Positions 23,213 to 31,246 of a stretch of 64,000 nucleotides of DNA are shown here, one piece after another. Position numbers and translations under genes: made by a program. The stretch is from an uncultured Candidatus Saccharimonas sp. (GTDB taxonomy: Bacteria; Patescibacteriota; Saccharimonadia; Saccharimonadales; AQU-01), in NCBI GenBank assembly GCA_943358095.1, contig CALRGT010000001.1, positions 450 through 64,449 of the forward strand, read 5' to 3'. The notes beneath the pieces are model-generated. The model saw only the letters and a list, made by a program, of their open reading frames with translations, ran no database searches and was not told where the DNA came from. The number at the start of each line of letters is the position of its first letter. Position 1 is the first letter of the stretch.

Positions 23213-24151
23213 ATGGCAGAAGCCAAAAAAGTTGCTAAAGCAACAACTACTAAAACTAAAAAAGCAGTTGCAGAGGAAGTAGTAGCAGTTACAGCAGAAG
23301 CTGTAGTAGCACCTATTGTAGAAGAAAAAGTAGCTAAGGCTGGCAAGCGCAGTCTTAAGGCCGTAAAAGAAGCCGAAGCTGTAGTAGCCAAAGAAGAACG
23401 CAAGCTAAAAGCTGAAGTTAATGCTGAAGCTCCTGCTCATCACCAGAAACCTACTCGTTCAATCCTAGAACGCAGAGGCAAGAATTATCGCAAAGCAAAC
23501 GAACTAGTCGAAAAGAAGAAAGTTTACGAACTTAAAGAAGCTCTTGATCTAGCTATTAAAACTAGCCTAGTAAAATTTGATGCAAGCGTAGAAATGCACA
23601 TCAATTTGGCTGTTGATCCTCGCCAAGCTGACCAAAACATTCGTGGCAGCATCGCACTACCAGCCGGTACAGGCAAAACTGTACGTATCGTTGTATTGGC
23701 AGATGCTAAGGACGCTGACGCAGCTATTAAAGCTGGTGCCGATAAAGCAGGTAGCGACGATATCTTTGCCGCACTTGATAAAGGTATAATTGATTTCGAT
23801 ATTCTAATTTGTACACCAGCTATGATGCCAAAACTTGGTAAGTATGCACGTGTACTAGGTCCAAAAGGCTTAATGCCTAACCCTAAGAGCGGTACTGTTA
23901 CACCAGATGTAGCAAAAGCTGTTAGTGAAGCAAAAGCCGGTAAAGTTGAGTTCCGTGTTGATAGTACAGGAATAGTTCACTTGGCAGTTGGTAAAGTAAG
24001 CTTTGGCGTTGAAAAGCTAGAACAAAATGCATCAGCAGTACTAGCTACTATTCGTTCTGCAAAACCACTTTCTCTAAAAGGCGGCACCTTCATAAAATCT
24101 GTACACTTGACCACAACTATGGGTCCAAGTATCAAGATTTCTTTTAACTAA
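23213..24151 (+). CDS. rplA: 50S ribosomal protein L1 with ~85-aa Ala/Lys/Glu-rich N-terminal extension
   Basis: Residues ~86-312 match L1 (KVYELKEALDLAIKTSLVKFDASVEM...); AAGGAG RBS at 23200-23205 supports the upstream start. Confidence 0.85.
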   Translation: MAEAKKVAKATTTKTKKAVAEEVVAVTAEAVVAPIVEEKVAKAGKRSLKAVKEAEAVVAKEERKLKAEVNAEAPAHHQKPTRSILERRGKNYRKANELVEKKKVYELKEALDLAIKTSLVKFDASVEMHINLAVDPRQADQNIRGSIALPAGTGKTVRIVVLADAKDADAAIKAGADKAGSDDIFAALDKGIIDFDILICTPAMMPKLGKYARVLGPKGLMPNPKSGTVTPDVAKAVSEAKAGKVEFRVDSTGIVHLAVGKVSFGVEKLEQNASAVLATIRSAKPLSLKGGTFIKSVHLTTTMGPSIKISFN

Positions 24152-24207
24152 GACGAAGTATCTACAATTAGTTTCCGTACTGACGGTCTAACTGATAATA
24201 TATTCCT

Positions 24208-24975
24208 ATGATTATAATCGGAATGACCGGTCCTATAAGCCACGGGAAGACAACTTTTGCCGATGCAATCGAAAAGATCGAACCATCTACAATTCACTTT
24301 GAATCGAGCCTAATTATTGCTGAAGTGATAAACGCGCTTCACGCCTCTACCGACAAAATACCATCACCCTATAATGTAGATAGTATCAACGAGTGGCTTA
24401 AACCGCTACCGTCTATTCTGCTTGAAGTACTTGGTGTGAAGAGTGATATCGAACAAATACGCATCAGCCAATCCGATGCCGATAAACATCCAATTGAGTA
24501 CGACAAACTCATACTGCATATTGAAGGCCTGCAAAGAGACCCTAGCCTAATAAGCAAGACTATAGATTCTGAAAACAAAGAATCATTCCGCGCAATTCTA
24601 CAGTGGGTTGGTGGCTATCTAGTTAAAAAAGTTAGTTCTGACATTTGGTACGACGAAATAATTAAAAGAGCCCGCAAAGCCGAACAGGATGGGTTTAATA
24701 TATGTATCATTGGGGGATTACGATTTCCTAGTGACGCGAAAATCGTACATCAAGCCGGTGGAATTATCATCAAGGTATACCGCCCTGATCATTTGCAGTA
24801 CGACATACTTGACCCAACCGAACGTGAACGCGACAACATCGCCTGCGACTCAACAATTATGAGCAACGGAACAATTGAAGACATGAATTTATGTGCCGTC
24901 CAAGTGCTGGAAGATATTAAGAATAAAAAGTTAGAAAAGATTTATCAAACAATTCGCTACCGAGTGAATCAATAA
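24208..24975 (+). CDS. Deoxynucleoside monophosphate kinase-like P-loop protein (T4 gp1-like)
   Basis: N-terminal GMTGPISHGKTTFADAI resembles T4 dNMP kinase (SGVKRSGKDTTADFI); central IIGGLRFPSDAKIVHQAGGIIIKVYRPD and C-terminal SNGTIEDMNLCAVQVL segments parallel the gp1 layout; 255 aa. Confidence 0.5.
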   Translation: MIIIGMTGPISHGKTTFADAIEKIEPSTIHFESSLIIAEVINALHASTDKIPSPYNVDSINEWLKPLPSILLEVLGVKSDIEQIRISQSDADKHPIEYDKLILHIEGLQRDPSLISKTIDSENKESFRAILQWVGGYLVKKVSSDIWYDEIIKRARKAEQDGFNICIIGGLRFPSDAKIVHQAGGIIIKVYRPDHLQYDILDPTERERDNIACDSTIMSNGTIEDMNLCAVQVLEDIKNKKLEKIYQTIRYRVNQ

Positions 24976-25010
24976 TATATTAAACCTAAGAGCTTAGCAT
25001 CAGGAGTGTC

Positions 25011-25547
25011 ATGGTATCTATAATCGCAGCATATACAAATAATCGAGTTCTCGGAATGGATGGTGACCTGCCTTGGGATTTACCGATTGACCGCGACAGA
25101 TTTACTAAAATAACAGATGGTTCGACCGTTATAATGGGCCGCAAAACTTACGAATCGATAGCAAAAAACTCGTCCAAGCCGCTGAGCAACAGAAGAAATA
25201 TTGTTATTTCACGGACGCTTACAAAAGTTATAGACGGATTTGAACTGACCGATACATTGGATAAAGCGCTCCAAATGTCTAACTCACATAATAGCGAAGA
25301 GGAAGTATTTGTTATTGGTGGCGGTAATCTTTTCGACTATGCTCTTCGAAATAATTTAGTAGACGAAATGTATTTAACAGAAATTGACGCTGACATAAAA
25401 GGCGACGCATACTTTCCGGAATTTGATAAGACAAAATGGATCGAAGTATCTCGAAAGTCTGTTCCTAAAAATTCACAAAATATATATGACGTATCGTTTG
25501 TAGTGTTGATGAAAATAACTAGCGCAAGCACTAAGATAGATTTATAA
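25011..25547 (+). CDS. folA: Dihydrofolate reductase
   Basis: MVSIIAAYTNNRVLGMDGDLPWDLPIDRDRFTKITDGSTVIMGRKTYESI closely follows the DHFR N-terminal consensus; 178 aa. Confidence 0.8.
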   Translation: MVSIIAAYTNNRVLGMDGDLPWDLPIDRDRFTKITDGSTVIMGRKTYESIAKNSSKPLSNRRNIVISRTLTKVIDGFELTDTLDKALQMSNSHNSEEEVFVIGGGNLFDYALRNNLVDEMYLTEIDADIKGDAYFPEFDKTKWIEVSRKSVPKNSQNIYDVSFVVLMKITSASTKIDL

Positions 25548-25684
25548 CTCGAATCTATTTATATCTCTCAAGCCTACATATTTGTAAATAAAAGGTTGTA
25601 ATATTGCACTGAGCTACTTGCGCATATGTCAAATTGTTTCGTACAATATATTGTACTTAACGACGATAAATTCTGGAGGCTAAC

Positions 25685-26398
25685 TTGGGCGTTTACAGCA
25701 ATATTCAGATCAACAAAGCAATTGAAGACAAACACATTGTTTGCGTACCGTTTAACCCAAAGCATGTCAGCCATGCCAGTCTTGATGTGACATTGGGGCA
25801 TTATTATTATCGTATCGAGAAGATGAATGAGAGGACTATCTATAATCCTTTTGACGCAGAAGATGTTGAAAGATATTTTGAAGGACCTTTTAAGGCGATG
25901 CCACACGAACAGTGGTGCAAACTGAACGGATTCGCGCCTTTAGTAGGTATACCGCCAGAACATCCCGTAATTGCCATTAAGCCAGGTGAAAGAATTTTGG
26001 CTCACACTCACGAATTTTTTGGTATTAAGCCGCCTGGCGCTTATGACCTAAGAGCGCGGTCATCTTGGGCACGTAACGGTGTGGCTGTATGCTTTGACGC
26101 CGGCTGGGTAGATCCTGGCTACATTAATAGATTAACTCTGGAGATATACAATCTTAATAGTCGAGAAACAGTCGTTTTGCCAGTGGGCGAAAGAATTGCA
26201 CAAGCTGTATTCCACGAAACTGGTGATGTTGAGGGCAACTATGGCGAAGGCAGAGACAGCAGCTTTAGCGGGAAATACCAAAATGGTACCGATATCGATA
26301 CTATTATTAAAACTTGGTCTCCAGACATGATGCTACCGAAAGCCTATTTAGACAAAAGAACAATGCCTGTCAAAATTGAAGGTTCGATTTATGAATGA
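25685..26398 (+). CDS. dcd: dCTP deaminase (dUTPase-superfamily), TTG start
   Basis: ASLDVTLGHYYYR... and RSSWARNGVAVCFDAGWVDPGYINRLTLEIYNLNS match Dcd core (GRSSLARLGL...DPGWSG...LEFYN); GGAGG RBS 6 nt before TTG. Confidence 0.7.
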   Translation: MGVYSNIQINKAIEDKHIVCVPFNPKHVSHASLDVTLGHYYYRIEKMNERTIYNPFDAEDVERYFEGPFKAMPHEQWCKLNGFAPLVGIPPEHPVIAIKPGERILAHTHEFFGIKPPGAYDLRARSSWARNGVAVCFDAGWVDPGYINRLTLEIYNLNSRETVVLPVGERIAQAVFHETGDVEGNYGEGRDSSFSGKYQNGTDIDTIIKTWSPDMMLPKAYLDKRTMPVKIEGSIYE

Positions 26399-26407
26399 TA
26401 GCAAATC

Positions 26408-28660
26408 ATGAAAAGAGGCAAGTACATAGTTCTAGAAGGAGCTGAAGGCGTAGGCAAGACAACTCAGCTTAAAATCTTGGCCAAGTATTTACAGTCAACA
26501 GGAATAGCAGTACGGTTACTACGCGAACCTGATAGTCAGAGCGACTTAACGGCAAGAACTATTCGACACCTTACTCAAAGTCCTCAATATCCTATGAATA
26601 CACGAACCGAGGTGTTGCTATATAACGCAGCCAGGGCTCAGTCCTTGCAGGTTATTAAAGAAAGCATCGAACAAGGCGTTACTTGTCTAGTAGATAGAAG
26701 CTATCTAACTACTCTAGCTGTTCAGTATTACGGGCGAGGCGACGTGCCAGAATATGACACCATTAATAATATAATCTCTTTTGCTGTTGGAGACATGGAA
26801 CCAGATCTCACTGTAATCCTGGATGCGCCGGTAGATTATTTAATTAAAAGAGCAAAATCACGCGGCCAGGGCGAAAGATTCGATAATTTAGACGAAAATT
26901 TTCTTGATAAAGTACGAGCAGGTTACTTATTAGAAGCAAAGAACCGTAATCTGCCTGTAGTTTCAGCAATTGGCGAACCGCTAGAAGTCTTTAAGCAAGT
27001 ATGGGAGCACGTCGCAAAATCTCTAGCTACAAGAACCAAATCAACAACAGCGTCAGTACCGAGTGAGCCTGTTGATAATACTGAGCTAGTTCACAAAGAC
27101 GCTAATGGCCAATATACGATTACAAGTAGTGGAAAATCTGAATTAGCTAAATATGTCACAGATTCTGAAGGTGAAGTCTACGCTTTTACGCAAGAACTTA
27201 GCCCATTAACTATCGCCGCTGCAATGGCGCGTCTTAGCCGTCGCGTTGACGATATGCGGATTACGCTATTGGACGAATTTTCTGGTCAAGCCGGCAAAGA
27301 CGAAAAACTCTTGCAGAGAGTAATTACAGCCTATGGCGATGACTCCGTTCAGCAATTAGTAGGAATGCACCTTGTAGTCGAGGGAGCATCTAACTTGCTT
27401 ACAAAAAAACTAGAGTGGGGCAGACTAGCCGCTTATCTAGAACAATCTACGAGATATATTTACTTTGACCAAAAAGATGCTGAGGGAAATTACAGGTACT
27501 TTACGCCAAAAGATTTAGACTCAGAAACTAAGGCTAAATATACTGAGGCAATGGACCAAATTTTTGATAGATATTCTATGATGGTTCGTGAACTTAGTGA
27601 CTATATTAGACGCAATTCGAAAGTACCAAAAGCCGAACAAGATACAGCATGGCTAGGCGCAACTAGAGCACAAGCTTGTGATGCAATTCGAGGCGTATTA
27701 CCCGTAGCGACCAAATCTACTGTTGGAATCTTTGCATCCGGCCAGGCACTAGAAAGCTTAATAATGCATTTGCTAAGCGATGAACTACCTGAAGCACGCG
27801 ATACAGGACAAAAAATTCTTGATGAATCGCGAAAAGTTATGCCGGCATTTCTGGAAAGGGCCGACAAACCTGAGCGTGGAGGCGCAATGATTGCCTATCG
27901 CTCAAATACCTATAAGGCTATGGAAAGTATCGCAAAAAAGAATCTGCAGGACTCCTATGGCCAATATGAAGAACCGGTGAGACTGGCAAATGTCTGGCCT
28001 CGCAATGAACTCGATCTTTTACCAGACATGCTATACGAGCACAGCAGCTTATCTTTAGAAGAAATTCGACGAGTCGTAGATGGTTGGTCATATGATAAAC
28101 GAGAGAAAGTATTCAAATCATATATTGGCGAAAGACTTAACAGACGACACAAGCCTGGACGCGCCATAGAAAAAGCCCATTATAGCTGGGACTTAGTATG
28201 CGATTATGGAATTTTCCGTGACCTGCAAAGACACCGCATGGTGGACGATTTGCAGTGGCAGGCCCTTACGCCTCGTTACGGCTATGATGTGCCAGAACTT
28301 GTAGAAGAAGCTGGGCTAAGCGATCAATACGAAGAGTGTTTTGATATTAGCGTCAGGCTTCACAGCGAGATGCAATCAGCAAAATTTGAATTAGAATCAC
28401 AATATGCCACACTGTTTGGGCATCGAATGCGTTGGAAAATTACCTATAATGCCAGACAAGCATTCCACTTTCATGAGCTTCGAACAACACCTCAAGGACA
28501 TCCAGGTTACCGCAAACTCGTTAAGCAAATGCATGATAAATTATGCGAAGTTCACCCATTAATTGGTGAGGCTATGAAGTTTGTTAACACTGACGAGGAC
28601 CCAGAACTTACGCGTCTAGCGGCAGAAAGATACACTCAGTTCAAACTGTCTCAGATGTAA
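26408..28660 (+). CDS. Thymidylate kinase fused to two tandem ThyX (flavin-dependent thymidylate synthase) modules
   Basis: aa 1-205 Tmk (YIVLEGAEGVGKTTQ, REPDS, DRSYLTTLAVQYYGRG, PDLTVILD). aa ~255-500 ThyX-like (…LEWGRLAAYLEQSTRY…ATRAQACDAIRGVLPVATKST…). aa ~505-750 second ThyX-like (…LQRHRMVDDLQWQALTPRY…ITYNARQAFHFHELR…). Confidence 0.7.
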   Translation: MKRGKYIVLEGAEGVGKTTQLKILAKYLQSTGIAVRLLREPDSQSDLTARTIRHLTQSPQYPMNTRTEVLLYNAARAQSLQVIKESIEQGVTCLVDRSYLTTLAVQYYGRGDVPEYDTINNIISFAVGDMEPDLTVILDAPVDYLIKRAKSRGQGERFDNLDENFLDKVRAGYLLEAKNRNLPVVSAIGEPLEVFKQVWEHVAKSLATRTKSTTASVPSEPVDNTELVHKDANGQYTITSSGKSELAKYVTDSEGEVYAFTQELSPLTIAAAMARLSRRVDDMRITLLDEFSGQAGKDEKLLQRVITAYGDDSVQQLVGMHLVVEGASNLLTKKLEWGRLAAYLEQSTRYIYFDQKDAEGNYRYFTPKDLDSETKAKYTEAMDQIFDRYSMMVRELSDYIRRNSKVPKAEQDTAWLGATRAQACDAIRGVLPVATKSTVGIFASGQALESLIMHLLSDELPEARDTGQKILDESRKVMPAFLERADKPERGGAMIAYRSNTYKAMESIAKKNLQDSYGQYEEPVRLANVWPRNELDLLPDMLYEHSSLSLEEIRRVVDGWSYDKREKVFKSYIGERLNRRHKPGRAIEKAHYSWDLVCDYGIFRDLQRHRMVDDLQWQALTPRYGYDVPELVEEAGLSDQYEECFDISVRLHSEMQSAKFELESQYATLFGHRMRWKITYNARQAFHFHELRTTPQGHPGYRKLVKQMHDKLCEVHPLIGEAMKFVNTDEDPELTRLAAERYTQFKLSQM

Positions 28661-28669
28661 ATCTGCGCC

Positions 28670-29161
28670 TTAAACTTCGGGGTGAGTAATTTCAAAAACA
28701 GCTATTCGACCAATATTTTTTGGAATATATGGATAGATCTCAATAGCTGCGGCGTGTGCTTTCTCGCCAGGATTAATGAGGCTTCCAGACAAACTTGATC
28801 CAGTTTCGGAATTACTTATCCATTCAACAGGATTTTTGCCTAATCGACTAAAACTAAGAGGCCCAACAGTCAAGTCAAACCTGTGAGCAGCAGAAGTGGC
28901 GCCAACTATAAATCCGTCAAGCGTAGGAGTTTCTTTGCCCTCTGGTGCTTTAAAAATAAATGGTCTAATAGTCGTCTTTTCTTCGTCTATATAGCTTGGC
29001 TCGATAGAACCGTTAAGAATATTAATAGCTCTTATGCCGAGGTCACTACCTTTAATGGTCTTTGGGTTTGTTCTAAGCAAATCAACGTAGGCATGACGAG
29101 CCGCCTCAACATCACGCATGTGTTCTATATGGTTTAATCGTTGTCTAATTGTTTCGCTCAT
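28670..29161 (-). CDS. Hypothetical protein (163 aa)
   Basis: Clean ORF convergent with the Tmk-ThyX gene; no recognisable motif. Confidence 0.4.
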   Translation of the reverse strand: MSETIRQRLNHIEHMRDVEAARHAYVDLLRTNPKTIKGSDLGIRAINILNGSIEPSYIDEEKTTIRPFIFKAPEGKETPTLDGFIVGATSAAHRFDLTVGPLSFSRLGKNPVEWISNSETGSSLSGSLINPGEKAHAAAIEIYPYIPKNIGRIAVFEITHPEV

Positions 29162-29293
29162 AGTATCAATTTCTTATCAGTACTTTTTTGTGGTTTTTAG
29201 ATGACCGAACATTATTATACTACTTTAATTGTATTTGTAAAGTTCATAGTCATTATAGTAATTTTCGTAACGAAATAAAGGTTAAAAATTATT

Positions 29294-29322
29294 TTGACAT
29301 TAGATTGCTAATCGTTTAGTAT
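29294..29322 (+). promoter_or_regulatory. Sigma-70-like promoter (TTGACA-17-TAGTAT) firing into a gene-poor 0.9-kb region
   Basis: TTGACA 29294-29299 and TAGTAT 29317-29322 inside an AT-rich divergent intergenic region. Confidence 0.3.
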
Positions 29323-29487
29323 AAATAATAATGAAAACCCAGACCCAACTAGTAGCACTCAACCTCAGTCTTCCGCGGCTGTGCCCTGAGATAGTTGGGG
29401 CCGCGTTTAGTCGATAAGACATAACGCCGTGGTACAGCCCAGCAACAAGAGCCCTAACAAAAGTTAGAGCTTTTTAAATTAAATAGA

Positions 29488-29751
29488 ATGGAATTATTGA
29501 TGAGACGAGAAACAGAACAGTACTTTAGACGTGCAATTTTAAGCGGCGACAATGGTGCTTCTGAGCAAATTAAAATGTCACACCCCGGTAAGGCTAATGG
29601 TATCAGACGTACTATGGGCGCTATTGCTGCACAAATTATTCGCTCTGAAGAGGGTTTACCTTTACCAGATTTTATAAGGCAAGAACCGTCAGCTGTTGAC
29701 TCAGTTCCTGATACAACATTTGCCGTAACAACAGAAGATGAAACAAGATAA
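29488..29751 (+). CDS. Hypothetical small protein (87 aa; alternative start 29500)
   Basis: ORF with non-random composition, stop overlapping the start of the next small ORF (TAATG); an antisense ORF overlaps, so uncertain. Confidence 0.25.
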   Translation: MELLMRRETEQYFRRAILSGDNGASEQIKMSHPGKANGIRRTMGAIAAQIIRSEEGLPLPDFIRQEPSAVDSVPDTTFAVTTEDETR

Positions 29752-29957
29752 TGGAAAAGAACATAGAAAATTTTGATATTAACAGTCCAGAAACAACTAA
29801 TGAACGCATAGCTAAATTGCACAGACAAGGTCGCTTAATCCCAGCTCCGCCAGACACTGCTTTTTTTGGAGGCCGTCCCGCAGGAATCGTAGGAATAAGT
29901 GGCGCTGAAGTAGAAATGGTATTTGTCGGCTTAGGCAATGCTGTCGAAAACATATAG
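29751..29957 (+). CDS. Hypothetical small protein (68 aa), translationally coupled to the preceding ORF
   Basis: TAATG coupling; Gly/Ala/Pro-containing sequence; no motif. Confidence 0.25.
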   Translation: MEKNIENFDINSPETTNERIAKLHRQGRLIPAPPDTAFFGGRPAGIVGISGAEVEMVFVGLGNAVENI

Positions 29958-30102
29958 TAGCTCGCGCGTACGCCGATCACAGGCACACCGTAAATACGTT
30001 TTTTCTAATGCCACAGATAGAAGAGGTATATAACTATCCGACGCAGATCTATGGCGACTCGTTTCCAAGGGGTTATGAGGATTAAATTTGCCCGATATGT
30101 GA

Positions 30103-30131
30103 TTGACTTAATCTGTTAAATAGACTAGAAT
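30103..30131 (+). promoter_or_regulatory. Sigma-70-like promoter for rplJ-rplL (TTGACT-17-TAGAAT)
   Basis: TTGACT 30103-30108, 17-nt spacer, TAGAAT 30126-30131, ~190 nt upstream of rplJ. Confidence 0.45.
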
Positions 30132-30318
30132 AACTCTGTTACCAAAGACAGTAGCGGTGAGTCCTAACAGACAAACGTAAAAATGCTACCGAGGTCAGAA
30201 TTTATTCTCTTCGAAATTATTAGTCTTTGATGTAAATCGTCGAAGACTTTTTATTTTCGGTAACAAACAGTCCTCAATGGTCGATGGCTGTTAATAACAA
30301 CAAAAGGAAACATTATCT
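30132..30318 (+). promoter_or_regulatory. rplJ 5' leader (candidate L10(L12)4 autoregulatory leader)
   Basis: Long untranslated leader between promoter and rplJ, as found for L10 leaders in most bacteria; structure not verified. Confidence 0.3.
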
Positions 30319-30843
30319 ATGGCGCTAAGTAGAATCAAGAAGAACGAAGTACTCGACGAAGTCAGTGGCTTACTCGATGCTTCAAAACTTACTGTACTTG
30401 CAGCATATGCCGGTACGAGCGTGAAAGAGCTACAAGAGTTGCGAAAATCAGCTCGTGAAAACTCGACTCACGTTAGAGTCATCAAAAACCGTTTGGTCAT
30501 TAAGGCACTACAAAACAACGAACGCTTTAAAGCAGTTGACACTAGCGCACTAAAAGGCCAGATACTATACGCCTTCAACAGCGAAGACGAAGTAGCTTCA
30601 GCACAAGTTTTGGCAAAGTTTGCTAAAACCGCTCCAACTCTTCAATTCGTAGGTGGTATCAGTAGCGAAGGTGCTTTTATTAGCGCCGACGACGTAAAAG
30701 CCCTAGCATTATTGCCGGGCAAAAATCAGCTTATTGCTGAGGTACTGGCAACACTTTCATCTCCGTTAGACGGAGTTATGAACGGTTTGTCAGGCAACTT
30801 ACACGCTCTACTCGATGGAGTAGAAGCTAAGGCAAAAGCCTAA
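30319..30843 (+). CDS. rplJ: 50S ribosomal protein L10
   Basis: 174 aa L10; followed by rplL. Confidence 0.9.
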   Translation: MALSRIKKNEVLDEVSGLLDASKLTVLAAYAGTSVKELQELRKSARENSTHVRVIKNRLVIKALQNNERFKAVDTSALKGQILYAFNSEDEVASAQVLAKFAKTAPTLQFVGGISSEGAFISADDVKALALLPGKNQLIAEVLATLSSPLDGVMNGLSGNLHALLDGVEAKAKA

Positions 30844-30865
30844 TTAATTTAAGAAAGGATCTATC

Positions 30866-31246
30866 ATGGCAGATTTAAAGAAGATTGCAGAACAGTTAAC
30901 AGGCTTGACTGTACTAGAAGTTAACGAACTTAAGACTATCCTTAAGGATGAATACGGTATCGAACCAGCTGCAGCAGCAGTTGCAATGGCCGGTCCAGCT
31001 GGCGGCGGCGACGCTGCTCCTGCTGAAGACGCTAAAAGTGAATACAACGTCGTTCTAAAAGACGCTGGTGCACAGAAGGTCGCTATCATCAAAGCTGTTA
31101 AGGACATCACAGGCCTAGGTCTTGGTGAAGCTAAAGCTCTAGTTGATGGTGCTCCAAAAACTATCTTAGAAAACGCTAAGAAAGATGACGCTGAAGCAGC
31201 CAAGAAAACTCTTGAAGACGCTGGCGCAACTGTCGAACTAGTCTAA
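30866..31246 (+). CDS. rplL: 50S ribosomal protein L7/L12
   Basis: N-terminal dimerisation helix, Ala/Gly/Pro hinge ([21 protein letters not shown]), conserved C-terminal domain ([28 protein letters not shown]). Confidence 0.9.

What the first reader, a model, noticed from the sequence alone, without database searches (positions are those of the whole stretch)
26408..28660. 750-aa fusion of thymidylate kinase with two tandem ThyX modules that have degenerated reciprocally
Seen directly: residues 1-205 are a complete Tmk. Residues ~255-500 and ~505-750 each align along the whole ThyX fold: the HxSxxE…RHR…SQRY segment, the ARxxLPxAT segment and the NxRxxxHFxxxR segment. Module 1 has lost the RHR motif (WGR at nt 27416-27424) but keeps the Ser-x-Arg-Tyr box (STRY, 27446-27457). 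Module 2 keeps RHR (28229-28237) but its SQRY box reads TPRY (28268-28279). In canonical ThyX homotetramers each active site is assembled from residues of different subunits. A covalently linked pseudo-dimer with complementary losses would therefore be predicted to retain only a subset of active sites, the classic trajectory of duplicated oligomeric enzymes. The fusion to Tmk places two consecutive dTTP-pathway steps on one chain. I do not recognise this architecture as a described enzyme form.
Basis: partly seen in the sequence, partly recalled or inferred. Interest (0 to 1): 0.8.

Follow-up and report, generated by a model that had tools for sequence, protein, structure and literature searches.

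The report
Thymidylate kinase fused to split-function double ThyX
This is a real, widely conserved gene of Saccharibacteria that joins a thymidylate kinase to a doubled flavin-dependent thymidylate synthase; the two synthase halves have divided the catalytic residues between them, probably leaving two working active sites instead of four, and no paper describing this form was found in the library searched.

Summary
ORF 26408-28660 encodes 750 aa: a complete dTMP kinase above NCBI's equivalog cut-off, a flexible linker, and two Thy1/ThyX modules, each above Pfam's threshold.

It is not an assembly artefact. At least 120 full-length homologues (65-100% identity), mostly unnamed and named Saccharibacteria/Patescibacteria where a source gives a name, share the architecture and the motif states.

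The doubled ThyX without a kinase (~530 aa) is a very large family: 734 clusters at 50% identity with E<=1e-30, and at least 595 species genomes, including Actinomycetota. Databases call it "FAD-dependent thymidylate synthase". I found no solved structure, no dedicated NCBIfam model and no paper on it.

- Module 1 keeps E86, S88, R90, Y91 and R147, the substrate-loop role.
- Module 2 keeps R78-H79-R80, R165, R174 and E58, the flavin-side roles.
- Each module has lost the other's set.

This predicts a homodimer that mimics the ThyX tetramer with two live and two dead sites.

The real lesions in module 2 are R147->Q and E86->A.

Sister lineages fuse a different, mycobacterial-type dTMP kinase to the same doubled ThyX, which supports a dUMP->dTMP->dTDP coupling.

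Verdict: a new variant of a known kind, of moderate interest.

The parts
26408..28660 (+). Whole ORF, 750 aa: Tmk, linker, ThyX module 1, ThyX module 2 (stop codon at 28658-28660).
   Evidence: 120 full-length homologues at 65-100% identity.
26408..27022 (+). dTMP kinase domain (residues 1-205). It has the P-loop GAEGVGKTT, REP, the DR motif (D96-R97) and the LID region KRAKSRGQGERFD.
   Evidence: TIGR00041 scores 111.2 bits against a cut-off of 83.25. It aligns end to end with solved Tmks: 2PBR E 2.7e-29, 4TMK E 1.2e-22.
27023..27094 (+). Poorly conserved, probably flexible linker (residues 206-229).
   Evidence: Low conservation. pLDDT is below 50 at residues 210-223 in the full-length model.
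27095..27943 (+). ThyX module 1 (residues 230-512), the 'substrate-loop' module. It keeps R339, E345, S347, R349, Y350 and R428. It has lost R78/H79 (W337, G338), R165 (Q446) and N163 (S444).
   Evidence: Pfam Thy1 at 72.5 bits. hhalign to T. maritima ThyX. Conservation. AF2 pLDDT 94.6.
27416..27457 (+). Module 1 motif WGRLAAYLEQSTRY. It corresponds to R78-H79-R80...E86-x-S88-x-R90-Y91 of T. maritima ThyX.
27689..27691 (+). R428 of module 1 (in AIRGVLP), equivalent to R147 of T. maritima ThyX.
   Evidence: R in 100% of both 120-sequence sets.
27977..28657 (+). ThyX module 2 (residues 524-750), the 'flavin-side' module. It keeps E588, R604, R608-H609-R610, N681, R683 and R692. R147 is replaced by Q665 and E86 by A619.
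   Evidence: Pfam Thy1 at 51.7 bits. hhalign to T. maritima ThyX: probability 93.8%, E 2.9e-8. Conservation.
28229..28279 (+). Module 2 motif RHRMVDDLQWQALTPRY: RHR intact, a 3-residue insertion, and S88->T.
28400..28405 (+). Q665-Y666 of module 2, at the position of R147. Y is invariant across the family.
28448..28483 (+). Module 2 segment NARQAFHFHELR. N681, R683 and R692 correspond to N163, R165 and R174.
25685..26398 (+). dCTP deaminase (DCD, with dUTPase-like similarity) ending 9 nt upstream of the fusion gene. It is the probable operon partner that supplies the dU nucleotide.
   Evidence: Pfam DCD at 108 bits. TIGR02274 scores 95.1 against a cut-off of 92.8. It lies immediately upstream in most related Saccharibacteria loci.

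Best explanation
The gene encodes a bifunctional enzyme for two consecutive steps of dTTP synthesis.

The C-terminal 520 residues are a covalently linked pseudo-heterodimer of two ThyX folds that arose by an ancient duplication. Canonical ThyX is a homotetramer. Each of its four sites is built from three subunits:
- One subunit gives the RHR motif and R174.
- A second gives R165 and the T55/S71 position.
- A third gives the S-x-R-Y loop.

Here module 2 has kept the flavin-side residues (R608-H609-R610, R692, R683, N681, E588). Module 1 has kept the substrate-loop residues (E345, S347, R349, Y350, R428). Each module has lost the other's set.

Inferred: two polypeptides dimerise into a tetramer-like core. 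Only two composite sites are complete in that core: RHR and R174 from one module 2, R165 most probably from the other module 2, and the S-x-R-Y loop and R147 from a module 1. The two reciprocal sites cannot hold FAD.

These live sites would methylate dUMP to dTMP using FAD, NAD(P)H and methylene-tetrahydrofolate. The N-terminal dTMP kinase is tethered by a flexible linker and phosphorylates dTMP to dTDP. The upstream dCTP deaminase feeds the pathway.

Shown: domain identities, residue partition, conservation, and distribution. Inferred: dimer assembly, the number of live sites, the enzymatic activities, and any kinetic coupling.
For: Domain identity:
- Tmk is above the equivalog cut-off and aligns fully to solved Tmks.
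- Both ThyX modules are above the Pfam cut-off.
- The AF2 model of residues 230-750 has pLDDT 94.6 and pTM 0.90.
- All of the 50 best Foldseek matches listed are single-domain ThyX/FDTS-family chains (T. maritima, M. tuberculosis, PBCV-1, T. thermophilus ThyX, and the ThyX-like UMP/dUMP methylase PolB). They have target-normalised TM-scores (TMt) of about 0.62-0.74 and cover about half of the query.

Residue partition:
- It comes from hhalign mapping onto T. maritima ThyX. That sequence was verified identical to PDB 1KQ4/1O26.
- Conservation is 100% or close to it in 120 close fusion homologues (Saccharibacteria where named) and 120 actinobacterial relatives.
- Invariant columns of the 44-sequence alignment agree.

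Subunit roles of RHR/R199, S71/R190 and S105/R107/Y108 in M. tuberculosis ThyX are taken from PMC6514825 section 3.1. Sites at the interface of three monomers are also stated in PMC11940539.

The fusion is real and selected:
- At least 120 full-length homologues exist.
- Two non-orthologous dTMP-kinase types are fused to the same doubled ThyX in sister lineages: TIGR00041-type here and PRK07933-like elsewhere.
- The DCD-fusion gene order is conserved.
- No ThyA, canonical ThyX or second Tmk lies in the 64-kb window.
Against: - No biochemical or structural data exist for any member that I could find.
- The protein scores below the TIGR02170 thyX equivalog cut-off (56.4 against 87.9 bits).
- Profiles of each module do not reach solved ThyX sequences at significant E-values.
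- H53 of T. maritima ThyX is conserved in neither module: D311 in module 1 and P583 in module 2.
- The T55/S71 position is Ser only in module 1, whereas its partner R165 is kept only in module 2. The assignment of the third-subunit role is therefore not fully clean.
- Module 2 keeps T-P-R-Y at 98-100% in Saccharibacteria, and module 1 keeps an Arg at the R174 position in Actinomycetota. The 'dead' sites may therefore retain some function.
I could not determine which tetramer interface is intramolecular.
- Only 64 kb of the genome was seen, so another thymidylate synthase elsewhere cannot be excluded.
Confidence: 0.65

Rival explanations
1. Module 2 alone is the enzyme. Module 1 is a catalytically irrelevant pseudo-enzyme domain that only scaffolds or stabilises the assembly, and the sites are formed among module-2 copies.
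For: Module 2 has RHR, R165, R174 and, in Saccharibacteria, a near-canonical T-P-R-Y loop. Module 2 aligns better to T. maritima ThyX than module 1 does: probability 93.8% against 35%.
Against: Module 2 lacks R147 family-wide (Q or S, followed by an invariant Y). Its S-x-R-Y loop is not conserved outside Saccharibacteria: N/S, Y/H/R, H in Actinomycetota. Module 1's E86, S88, R90, Y91 and R147 equivalents are 100% conserved in both clades. That is hard to explain for a mere scaffold.
Confidence: 0.1
2. All four sites of the pseudo-tetramer are active. Substitute residues (for example W337, H454, Q665/Y666) replace the canonical ones, so there is no loss of sites.
For: The replacement residues are themselves highly conserved: W337 and G338 at 100% in Saccharibacteria and 97-100% in Actinomycetota, and Y666 at 95-100%. 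T-P-R-Y is conserved in module 2 of Saccharibacteria.
Against: R78 stabilises the reduced flavin and contacts dUMP, and RHR binds the FAD phosphates (PMC11940539; PMC6514825). Module 1 lacks R78, H79, R165 and N163 together. The position of R78 in module 1 varies across the family as W, R or D, which argues against a specific new function.
Confidence: 0.1
3. The doubled ThyX is not a dTMP synthase. It would be a related flavin-dependent pyrimidine-nucleotide methylase or hydroxymethylase acting on another substrate, with the fused kinase acting on that product.
For: It scores below the thyX equivalog cut-off. H53 is not conserved. ThyX-like enzymes with other substrates exist, for example the PolB UMP/dUMP methylase 4P5B among the fold matches.
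Against: The uracil-recognising R174 and the S88/R90/Y91 loop are invariant. Both fused kinase types are dTMP-kinase families. dCTP deaminase lies immediately upstream. No other thymidylate synthase is present in the window.
Confidence: 0.07
4. The long ORF is an artefact: a frameshift or chimeric assembly that joins separate tmk and thyX genes.
For: None found. Raw reads could not be inspected.
Against: 120 full-length homologues from independent assemblies cover 100% of the query. About 35 species genomes labelled Saccharibacteria or related, unnamed bacteria carry an open frame of roughly 770-845 aa at the same place.
Confidence: 0.01

Closest known systems
Canonical homotetrameric flavin-dependent thymidylate synthase ThyX (T. 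maritima TM0449, PDB 1O26; M. tuberculosis Rv2754c, PDB 3GWC)
   Same: Each module has the same fold (Pfam Thy1; Foldseek target-normalised TM-score (TMt) about 0.7). The same catalytic residues are used: RHR, S-x-R-Y, R147, R165, R174. The active sites are composite, built across subunits.
   Different: Two diverged copies sit on one chain. Sequence identity between modules is about 13%, with hhalign E 9e-6. No single module has the full residue set. The prediction is two sites per dimer rather than four per tetramer. The protein scores below the TIGR02170 cut-off.
Stand-alone doubled ThyX (~530-560 aa) of Actinomycetota (Acidimicrobiia and others), Methylomirabilota, Acidobacteriota and other CPR bacteria, annotated 'FAD-dependent thymidylate synthase'
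   Same: It has the same two-module architecture and the same partition of residues. Identity over both modules is 40-58%.
   Different: It has no kinase domain. Module 2's S-x-R-Y loop is more degenerate (N/S, Y/H/R, H). Module 1 keeps Arg at the R174 position.
Bifunctional DHFR-TS of protozoa and plants (from my own knowledge)
   Same: It is a covalent fusion of two enzymes of thymidylate metabolism on one chain that works as a dimer.
   Different: It fuses ThyA-type synthase to dihydrofolate reductase, not ThyX-type synthase to dTMP kinase. It has no internal duplication or dead sites.
Monomeric dUTPase of herpesviruses (from my own knowledge)
   Same: An oligomeric nucleotide enzyme with inter-subunit active sites was duplicated in tandem. 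The catalytic motifs were redistributed between the copies, leaving fewer composite sites.
   Different: The fold and reaction are different. It derives from a trimer and retains a single site.
Mixed-mutant ThyX heterotetramers (Leduc et al. 2004 PNAS; listed in the reference list seen; details are from my own memory because the paper is not held)
   Same: It demonstrates that ThyX sites are shared between monomers, so complementary defects in different subunits can still give a working site.
   Different: It is an engineered mixture of point mutants of one gene, not a natural fused pair of diverged modules.

Membership tests
dTMP kinase (TIGR00041 / Pfam PF02223) | Whole-domain match above the curated equivalog cut-off. 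| tested here: met
   TIGR00041 scores 111.2 bits against a cut-off of 83.25. PF02223 has E 1.2e-28.
dTMP kinase (TIGR00041 / Pfam PF02223) | P-loop, the DR(Y/H/F)-type motif and the LID region aligned to solved Tmks. | tested here: met
   Residues 7-199 align with 2PBR residues 3-186. GxxGxGKTT, REP, DR and the R/K-rich LID are conserved.
dTMP kinase (TIGR00041 / Pfam PF02223) | ATP-dependent phosphorylation of dTMP. | not testable with these tools
   Needs an enzyme assay or complementation of a tmk(ts) mutant.
ThyX / FDTS (Pfam PF02511, TIGR02170) | ThyX fold. | tested here: met
   There are two Thy1 hits at 72.5 and 51.7 bits against a cut-off of 24.8. The AF2 model has pLDDT 94.6. All 50 best listed Foldseek PDB matches are ThyX/FDTS-family chains, PolB included.
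ThyX / FDTS (Pfam PF02511, TIGR02170) | Score above the TIGR02170 equivalog cut-off. | tested here: not met
   The score is 56.4 bits against a cut-off of 87.9. All 44 doubled-ThyX proteins tested hit TIGR02170; the window protein's two-module segment (member 1 of A3) scores 58.6 bits, below the 87.9 cut-off, and scores of the other members are not listed.
ThyX / FDTS (Pfam PF02511, TIGR02170) | Complete ThyX motif RHR...S-x-R-Y plus R147, R165 and R174 within one module. | tested here: not met
   Module 1 has WGR...STRY, R147 present, R165->Q and R174->H. Module 2 has RHR...TPRY, R147->Q, and R165 and R174 present. The full set exists only across the two modules.
ThyX / FDTS (Pfam PF02511, TIGR02170) | Homotetramer with four FAD sites; dUMP to dTMP with CH2-THF and NAD(P)H. 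| not testable with these tools
   Needs a multimer model with ligands, a FAD stoichiometry measurement and activity assays.
Doubled (two-Thy1) ThyX family | Collinear alignment over both modules with the same partition of catalytic residues. | tested here: met
   Identity to 43 stand-alone members is 31-57% over 521 residues. There are 734 representatives at E<=1e-30. Residue states are shared.

The most novel reading that the evidence does not exclude
The two 'dead' sites may not be dead in the Saccharibacteria fusion enzymes. The module-2 T-P-R-Y loop is kept at 98-100% there but not in Actinomycetota. Together with the flavin-less module-1 pocket, it could form a nucleotide-binding site with a new role. 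Examples would be holding dTMP for hand-off to the tethered kinase, or allosteric control by dTTP-pathway nucleotides. That would make this a natural case of a duplicated oligomer converting half of its catalytic sites into channeling or regulatory sites.
Probability: 0.12. Interest if true: 0.75.

Novelty: new variant of a known kind. Interest (0 to 1): 0.55.

Why it matters
ThyX is an antibacterial drug target, and its mechanism depends on active sites shared by three subunits.

A natural, widespread enzyme in which the shared-site residues are split between two fused, diverged modules would be an evolutionary confirmation of that site architecture. It would also be a ready-made asymmetric ThyX with only one kind of live site, which is useful for mechanistic and structural work.

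For Saccharibacteria and other ultrasmall bacteria, it identifies a thymidylate synthase (no other lies in the 64-kb window, and the rest of the genome was not examined). That enzyme is currently often mislabelled simply as 'dTMP kinase'. The fusion shows that dTMP synthesis and phosphorylation are physically coupled.

The repeated fusion with two different dTMP-kinase types is a clean 'Rosetta-stone' link between the two steps.

Tried and rejected
Searches against solved structures:
- A single-sequence search and shallow-profile searches of the ThyX part found no significant ThyX hit.
- The residue mapping therefore rests on Pfam hits, on hhalign with deeper alignments, and on the fold search.
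- hhalign with 12-sequence profiles gave low-confidence alignments.
- It improved with about 126 sequences. The global mode for module 1 against T. maritima ThyX misaligned and was discarded.
- A first residue table had a numbering offset and was redone.

Literature:
- Searches for tandem or duplicated ThyX, ThyX in Saccharibacteria/Patescibacteria, and Tmk-ThyX fusion found nothing relevant.
- The ThyX phylogeny paper PMC9931769 does not mention duplication or fusion.
- Leduc 2004 (PNAS) and Stull 2016 (Biochemistry, PMC5939375) are not held.

Chlamydia lead:
- From memory, the biochemically characterised Chlamydia trachomatis ThyX is about 529 aa and may be a doubled ThyX.
- I could not verify this with any tool. 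The afdb50 library was unavailable, and no Chlamydia name appeared among the listed hits.

Other attempts:
- The look-up of encoding contigs did not hold this exact protein.
- The frameshift/chimera hypothesis was rejected on homologue evidence.
- I could not decide which tetramer interface is intramolecular, because model coordinates are not exposed.
Full report
**1. Observation**

The window contains an ATG-initiated ORF at 26408-28660 (+) of 750 aa.

Pfam finds Thymidylate_kin at residues 9-194 (E 1.2e-28) and two Thy1 stretches. Scanned separately, residues 235-500 score 72.5 bits over Thy1 profile positions 9-191 of 191. Residues 501-750 score 51.7 bits over positions 40-190. Both are well above the 24.8-bit cut-off.

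The kinase part passes NCBI's equivalog cut-off for dTMP kinase: TIGR00041 at 111.2 bits against 83.25. The thyX equivalog model TIGR02170 is hit only at 56.4 bits against a cut-off of 87.9.

- WGR, residues 337-339.
- STRY, residues 347-350.
- RHR, residues 608-610.
- TPRY, residues 621-624.

**2. The fusion is not an artefact**

A search of 5.8 billion proteins returned at least 120 full-length relatives of 750-808 aa. They have 65-100% identity and 100% query coverage, and all carry Thymidylate_kin plus Thy1. The roughly one in ten that carry an organism name are from Candidatus Saccharibacteria, Saccharimonadales or Patescibacteria assemblies. They are named 'dTMP kinase' or 'putative thymidylate synthase'.

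In that set the four motifs are at least 98% conserved. About 35 species genomes, labelled Saccharibacteria or related unnamed bacteria, have an open frame of roughly 770-845 aa at the homologous place. Reads could not be inspected, but a frameshift or chimera is effectively excluded.

**3. The doubled ThyX is a large, unstudied family**

An exhaustive HMMER scan with residues 230-750 against 1.84 billion representatives (50% clusters) gave 3527 hits at E<=1e-3 and 734 at E<=1e-30. Many of these are 520-560 aa proteins that align over both modules without any kinase.

Where sources name them, they are called 'FAD-dependent thymidylate synthase' or 'thymidylate synthase ThyX'. One IMG entry of 775 aa is already called 'thymidylate kinase/thymidylate synthase ThyX'.

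A scan of one genome per species found at least 595 encoding loci. The 80 best are Saccharibacteria and other CPR bacteria at 54-74% identity. They also include Actinomycetota (Acidimicrobiia, Nitriliruptorales and others), Acidobacteriota, and Rokubacteria/Methylomirabilota at 40-43%.

No description of the form was found:
- There is no dedicated NCBIfam model. All 44 tested members hit TIGR02170; the window protein's two-module segment scores 58.6 bits, below the 87.9 cut-off, and scores for the other members are not listed.
- No solved chain covers both modules. The best Foldseek matches are single-domain ThyX chains with target-normalised TM-score (TMt) about 0.7 and query-normalised TM-score (TMq) at most 0.34.
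- Eight literature searches and a ThyX phylogeny paper gave no description of a duplicated ThyX or a Tmk-ThyX fusion.
- From memory only, Chlamydia trachomatis ThyX is about 529 aa and may belong here. I could not test that.

**4. Anatomy**

AlphaFold2 on residues 230-750, with a 44-sequence alignment, gives pLDDT 94.6 and pTM 0.90. The model has two ThyX-like alpha/beta modules joined by a long helix (residues 491-512) and a loop.

The full-length model drops to pTM 0.63, with pLDDT below 50 at residues 210-223. The kinase therefore appears flexibly tethered rather than docked.

The kinase domain aligns end to end with solved Tmks. The P-loop, REP, DR and LID motifs are all conserved: A. aeolicus 2PBR at E 2.7e-29 and E. 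coli 4TMK at E 1.2e-22.

The two ThyX modules are only about 13% identical to each other (hhalign E 9e-6). The duplication is therefore ancient.

**5. Residue partition**

I mapped both modules onto T. maritima ThyX. The mapping used hhalign with about 126-sequence profiles:
- Module 2: probability 93.8%, E 2.9e-8, over the full length.
- Module 1: local alignment, E 4e-4, over residues 9-214 (consistent).

I then counted residues after hmmalign in three sets: 120 close fusion homologues (Saccharibacteria where named), 129 representatives, and 120 actinobacterial relatives. Invariant columns of the 44-sequence alignment agree.

| T. maritima residue | Module 1 | Module 2 |
|---|---|---|
| E58 | Q316 | E588 (100%) |
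| R74 | K333 (100% / 98%) | R604 (100%) |
| R78 | W337 (W, R or D across the family) | R608 (100%) |
| H79 | G338 | H609 (100%) |
| R80 | R339 (100%) | R610 (100%) |
| E86 | E345 (100%) | A619 (variable) |
| S88 | S347 (100%) | T621 |
| R90 | R349 (100%) | R623 |
| Y91 | Y350 (100%) | Y624 |
| R147 | R428 (100%) | Q665 (S in Actinomycetota), followed by invariant Y666 |
| N163 | S444 | N681 (100%) |
| R165 | Q446 | R683 (99-100%) |
| R174 | H454 (R in Actinomycetota) | R692 (100%) |

Module 2's S-x-R-Y loop is T-P-R-Y in Saccharibacteria (98-100%). In Actinomycetota it is degenerate (N/S, Y/H/R, H).

So ARxxLP exists only in module 1 and NxRxxxHFxxxR only in module 2.

**6. Why the partition matters**

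According to the review PMC6514825 (section 3.1), active site 1 of M. tuberculosis and H. pylori ThyX is built from three subunits:
- Subunit A supplies RHR (95-97) and R199, equivalent to R174 of T. maritima.
- Subunit B supplies S71 and R190, equivalent to T55 and R165.
- Subunit C supplies R87, S105, R107 and Y108, the S-x-R-Y loop.

PMC11940539 likewise states that the four sites lie at the interface of three monomers. It also states that S88 and Y91 are critical and that R78 stabilises the reduced flavin.

Module 2 has therefore kept the A-role residues and the B-role R165, while module 1 has kept the C-role residues. From memory, the B-role set also includes N163 and E58, which module 2 also keeps.

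In a D2 pseudo-tetramer made of two chains, the assignment A = module 2, B = module 2', C = module 1 gives two complete sites and two sites that lack R78, H79, R165, N163, R147 and E86 together.

One position does not fit cleanly. At T55/S71, module 1 has an invariant Ser and module 2 an invariant Arg. H53 is conserved in neither module. An alternative arrangement, in which module 1' plays the B role, cannot be excluded without coordinates.

**7. Support for the dUMP -> dTMP -> dTDP reading**

- In roughly half of the related Saccharibacteria loci, the N-terminal domain is a quite different kinase (FLVIEGTDGSGKGTQ...FDFPQY...ANRFTGSNMAHQG). It is not found by tblastn with the window's Tmk.
- That kinase is also Pfam Thymidylate_kin (68 bits) and resembles the PRK07933, mycobacterial-type, dTMP kinase (125 bits).
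- The two kinase types are interleaved on a rough neighbour-joining tree of the ThyX part.
- Two non-orthologous dTMP kinases fused to the same partner argue that the partner's product is dTMP.
- A dCTP deaminase (TIGR02274 at 95.1 bits against 92.8, with dUTPase-like similarity) ends 9 nt upstream. It holds that position in most related loci.
- No ThyA, canonical ThyX or second Tmk is detectable in the 64-kb window.

**8. Verdict**

Three corrections apply:
- The evidence lies mainly in R147, R165, R174 and E86 rather than in TPRY.
- The state is an ancient, conserved division of labour rather than degeneration.
- The doubled architecture is very common in databases, although apparently undescribed in the literature and structure archives available here.

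I rate it a new variant of a known kind: a ThyX-type thymidylate synthase in a fused pseudo-heterodimeric form, here additionally fused to dTMP kinase. Interest is moderate.

The most decisive missing pieces are a ligand-bound dimer model or structure, the FAD stoichiometry, module-specific mutagenesis, and a check of whether the already characterised Chlamydia enzyme belongs to this family.

Noticed in passing
Loci L001, L002, L009-L011, L013-L017, L019, L020, L022, L023, L025, L027, L029, L030, L034 (ORF starting about 750-800 nt upstream of the ThyX match, e.g. L001:3254-5572): In these sister genomes (labelled Saccharibacteria, or unnamed or otherwise-labelled bacteria), the doubled ThyX is fused to a different dTMP-kinase type. 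That type is PRK07933-like (mycobacterial type) and only about 25-32% identical, or undetectable, against the window's Tmk. The two kinase types are interleaved on a rough tree of the ThyX part. This suggests repeated replacement or independent fusion.
   Followed up: partly
L001:1675-2238, and similar positions in L006, L013, L020, L021, L025, L029, L032, L034: Several related loci carry an additional stand-alone Thymidylate_kin-family gene (64 bits) upstream of DCD, besides the fused kinase. Its role next to a fused dTMP kinase is unclear.
   Followed up: partly
window 23213-31246: The deoxynucleotide genes (DNMK-like kinase, DHFR, dCTP deaminase and the Tmk-ThyX-ThyX fusion) sit between rplA (L1, 23213-24151) and rplJ/rplL (L10 at 30319-30843, L7/L12 at 30866-31246). 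These ribosomal genes are normally adjacent. The L1...DCD-fusion...L10 order is conserved in most of the 38 related loci.
   Followed up: partly
window 25011-25547: A dihydrofolate reductase (Pfam DHFR_1, 162 bits) lies in a ThyX-type thymidylate cluster. ThyX produces tetrahydrofolate and does not need DHFR for the thymidylate cycle. Among the related loci, a DHFR match near the fusion gene was seen only here, plus weakly and on the opposite strand in L016. A 2025 paper (PMC11974145) discusses folA genes of CPR bacteria in a host-interaction context.
   Followed up: partly
window 24208-24975: A 255-aa P-loop protein has only a sub-threshold match to the phage-type deoxynucleotide monophosphate kinase family: PF21448 at 25.8 bits against a cut-off of 27.1. 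It is conserved at 36-57% identity in the same position in several related loci.
   Followed up: partly
window 28670-30123: A 163-aa ORF on the minus strand (28670-29161) has no Pfam or NCBIfam hit. It is followed by a stretch of about 960 nt (29162-30123) containing only overlapping short ORFs. Neither has any relative in the 80 related loci. An L10 leader RNA (RF00557, 60 bits) follows at 30124-30262.
   Followed up: partly
L030, L032, L033: The deepest-branching CPR relatives differ in architecture. L033 (552 aa) and L032 (642 aa) have no recognisable kinase domain. L030, labelled Parcubacteria, has the type-B kinase. The fusion therefore arose within CPR after the ThyX duplication.
   Followed up: no
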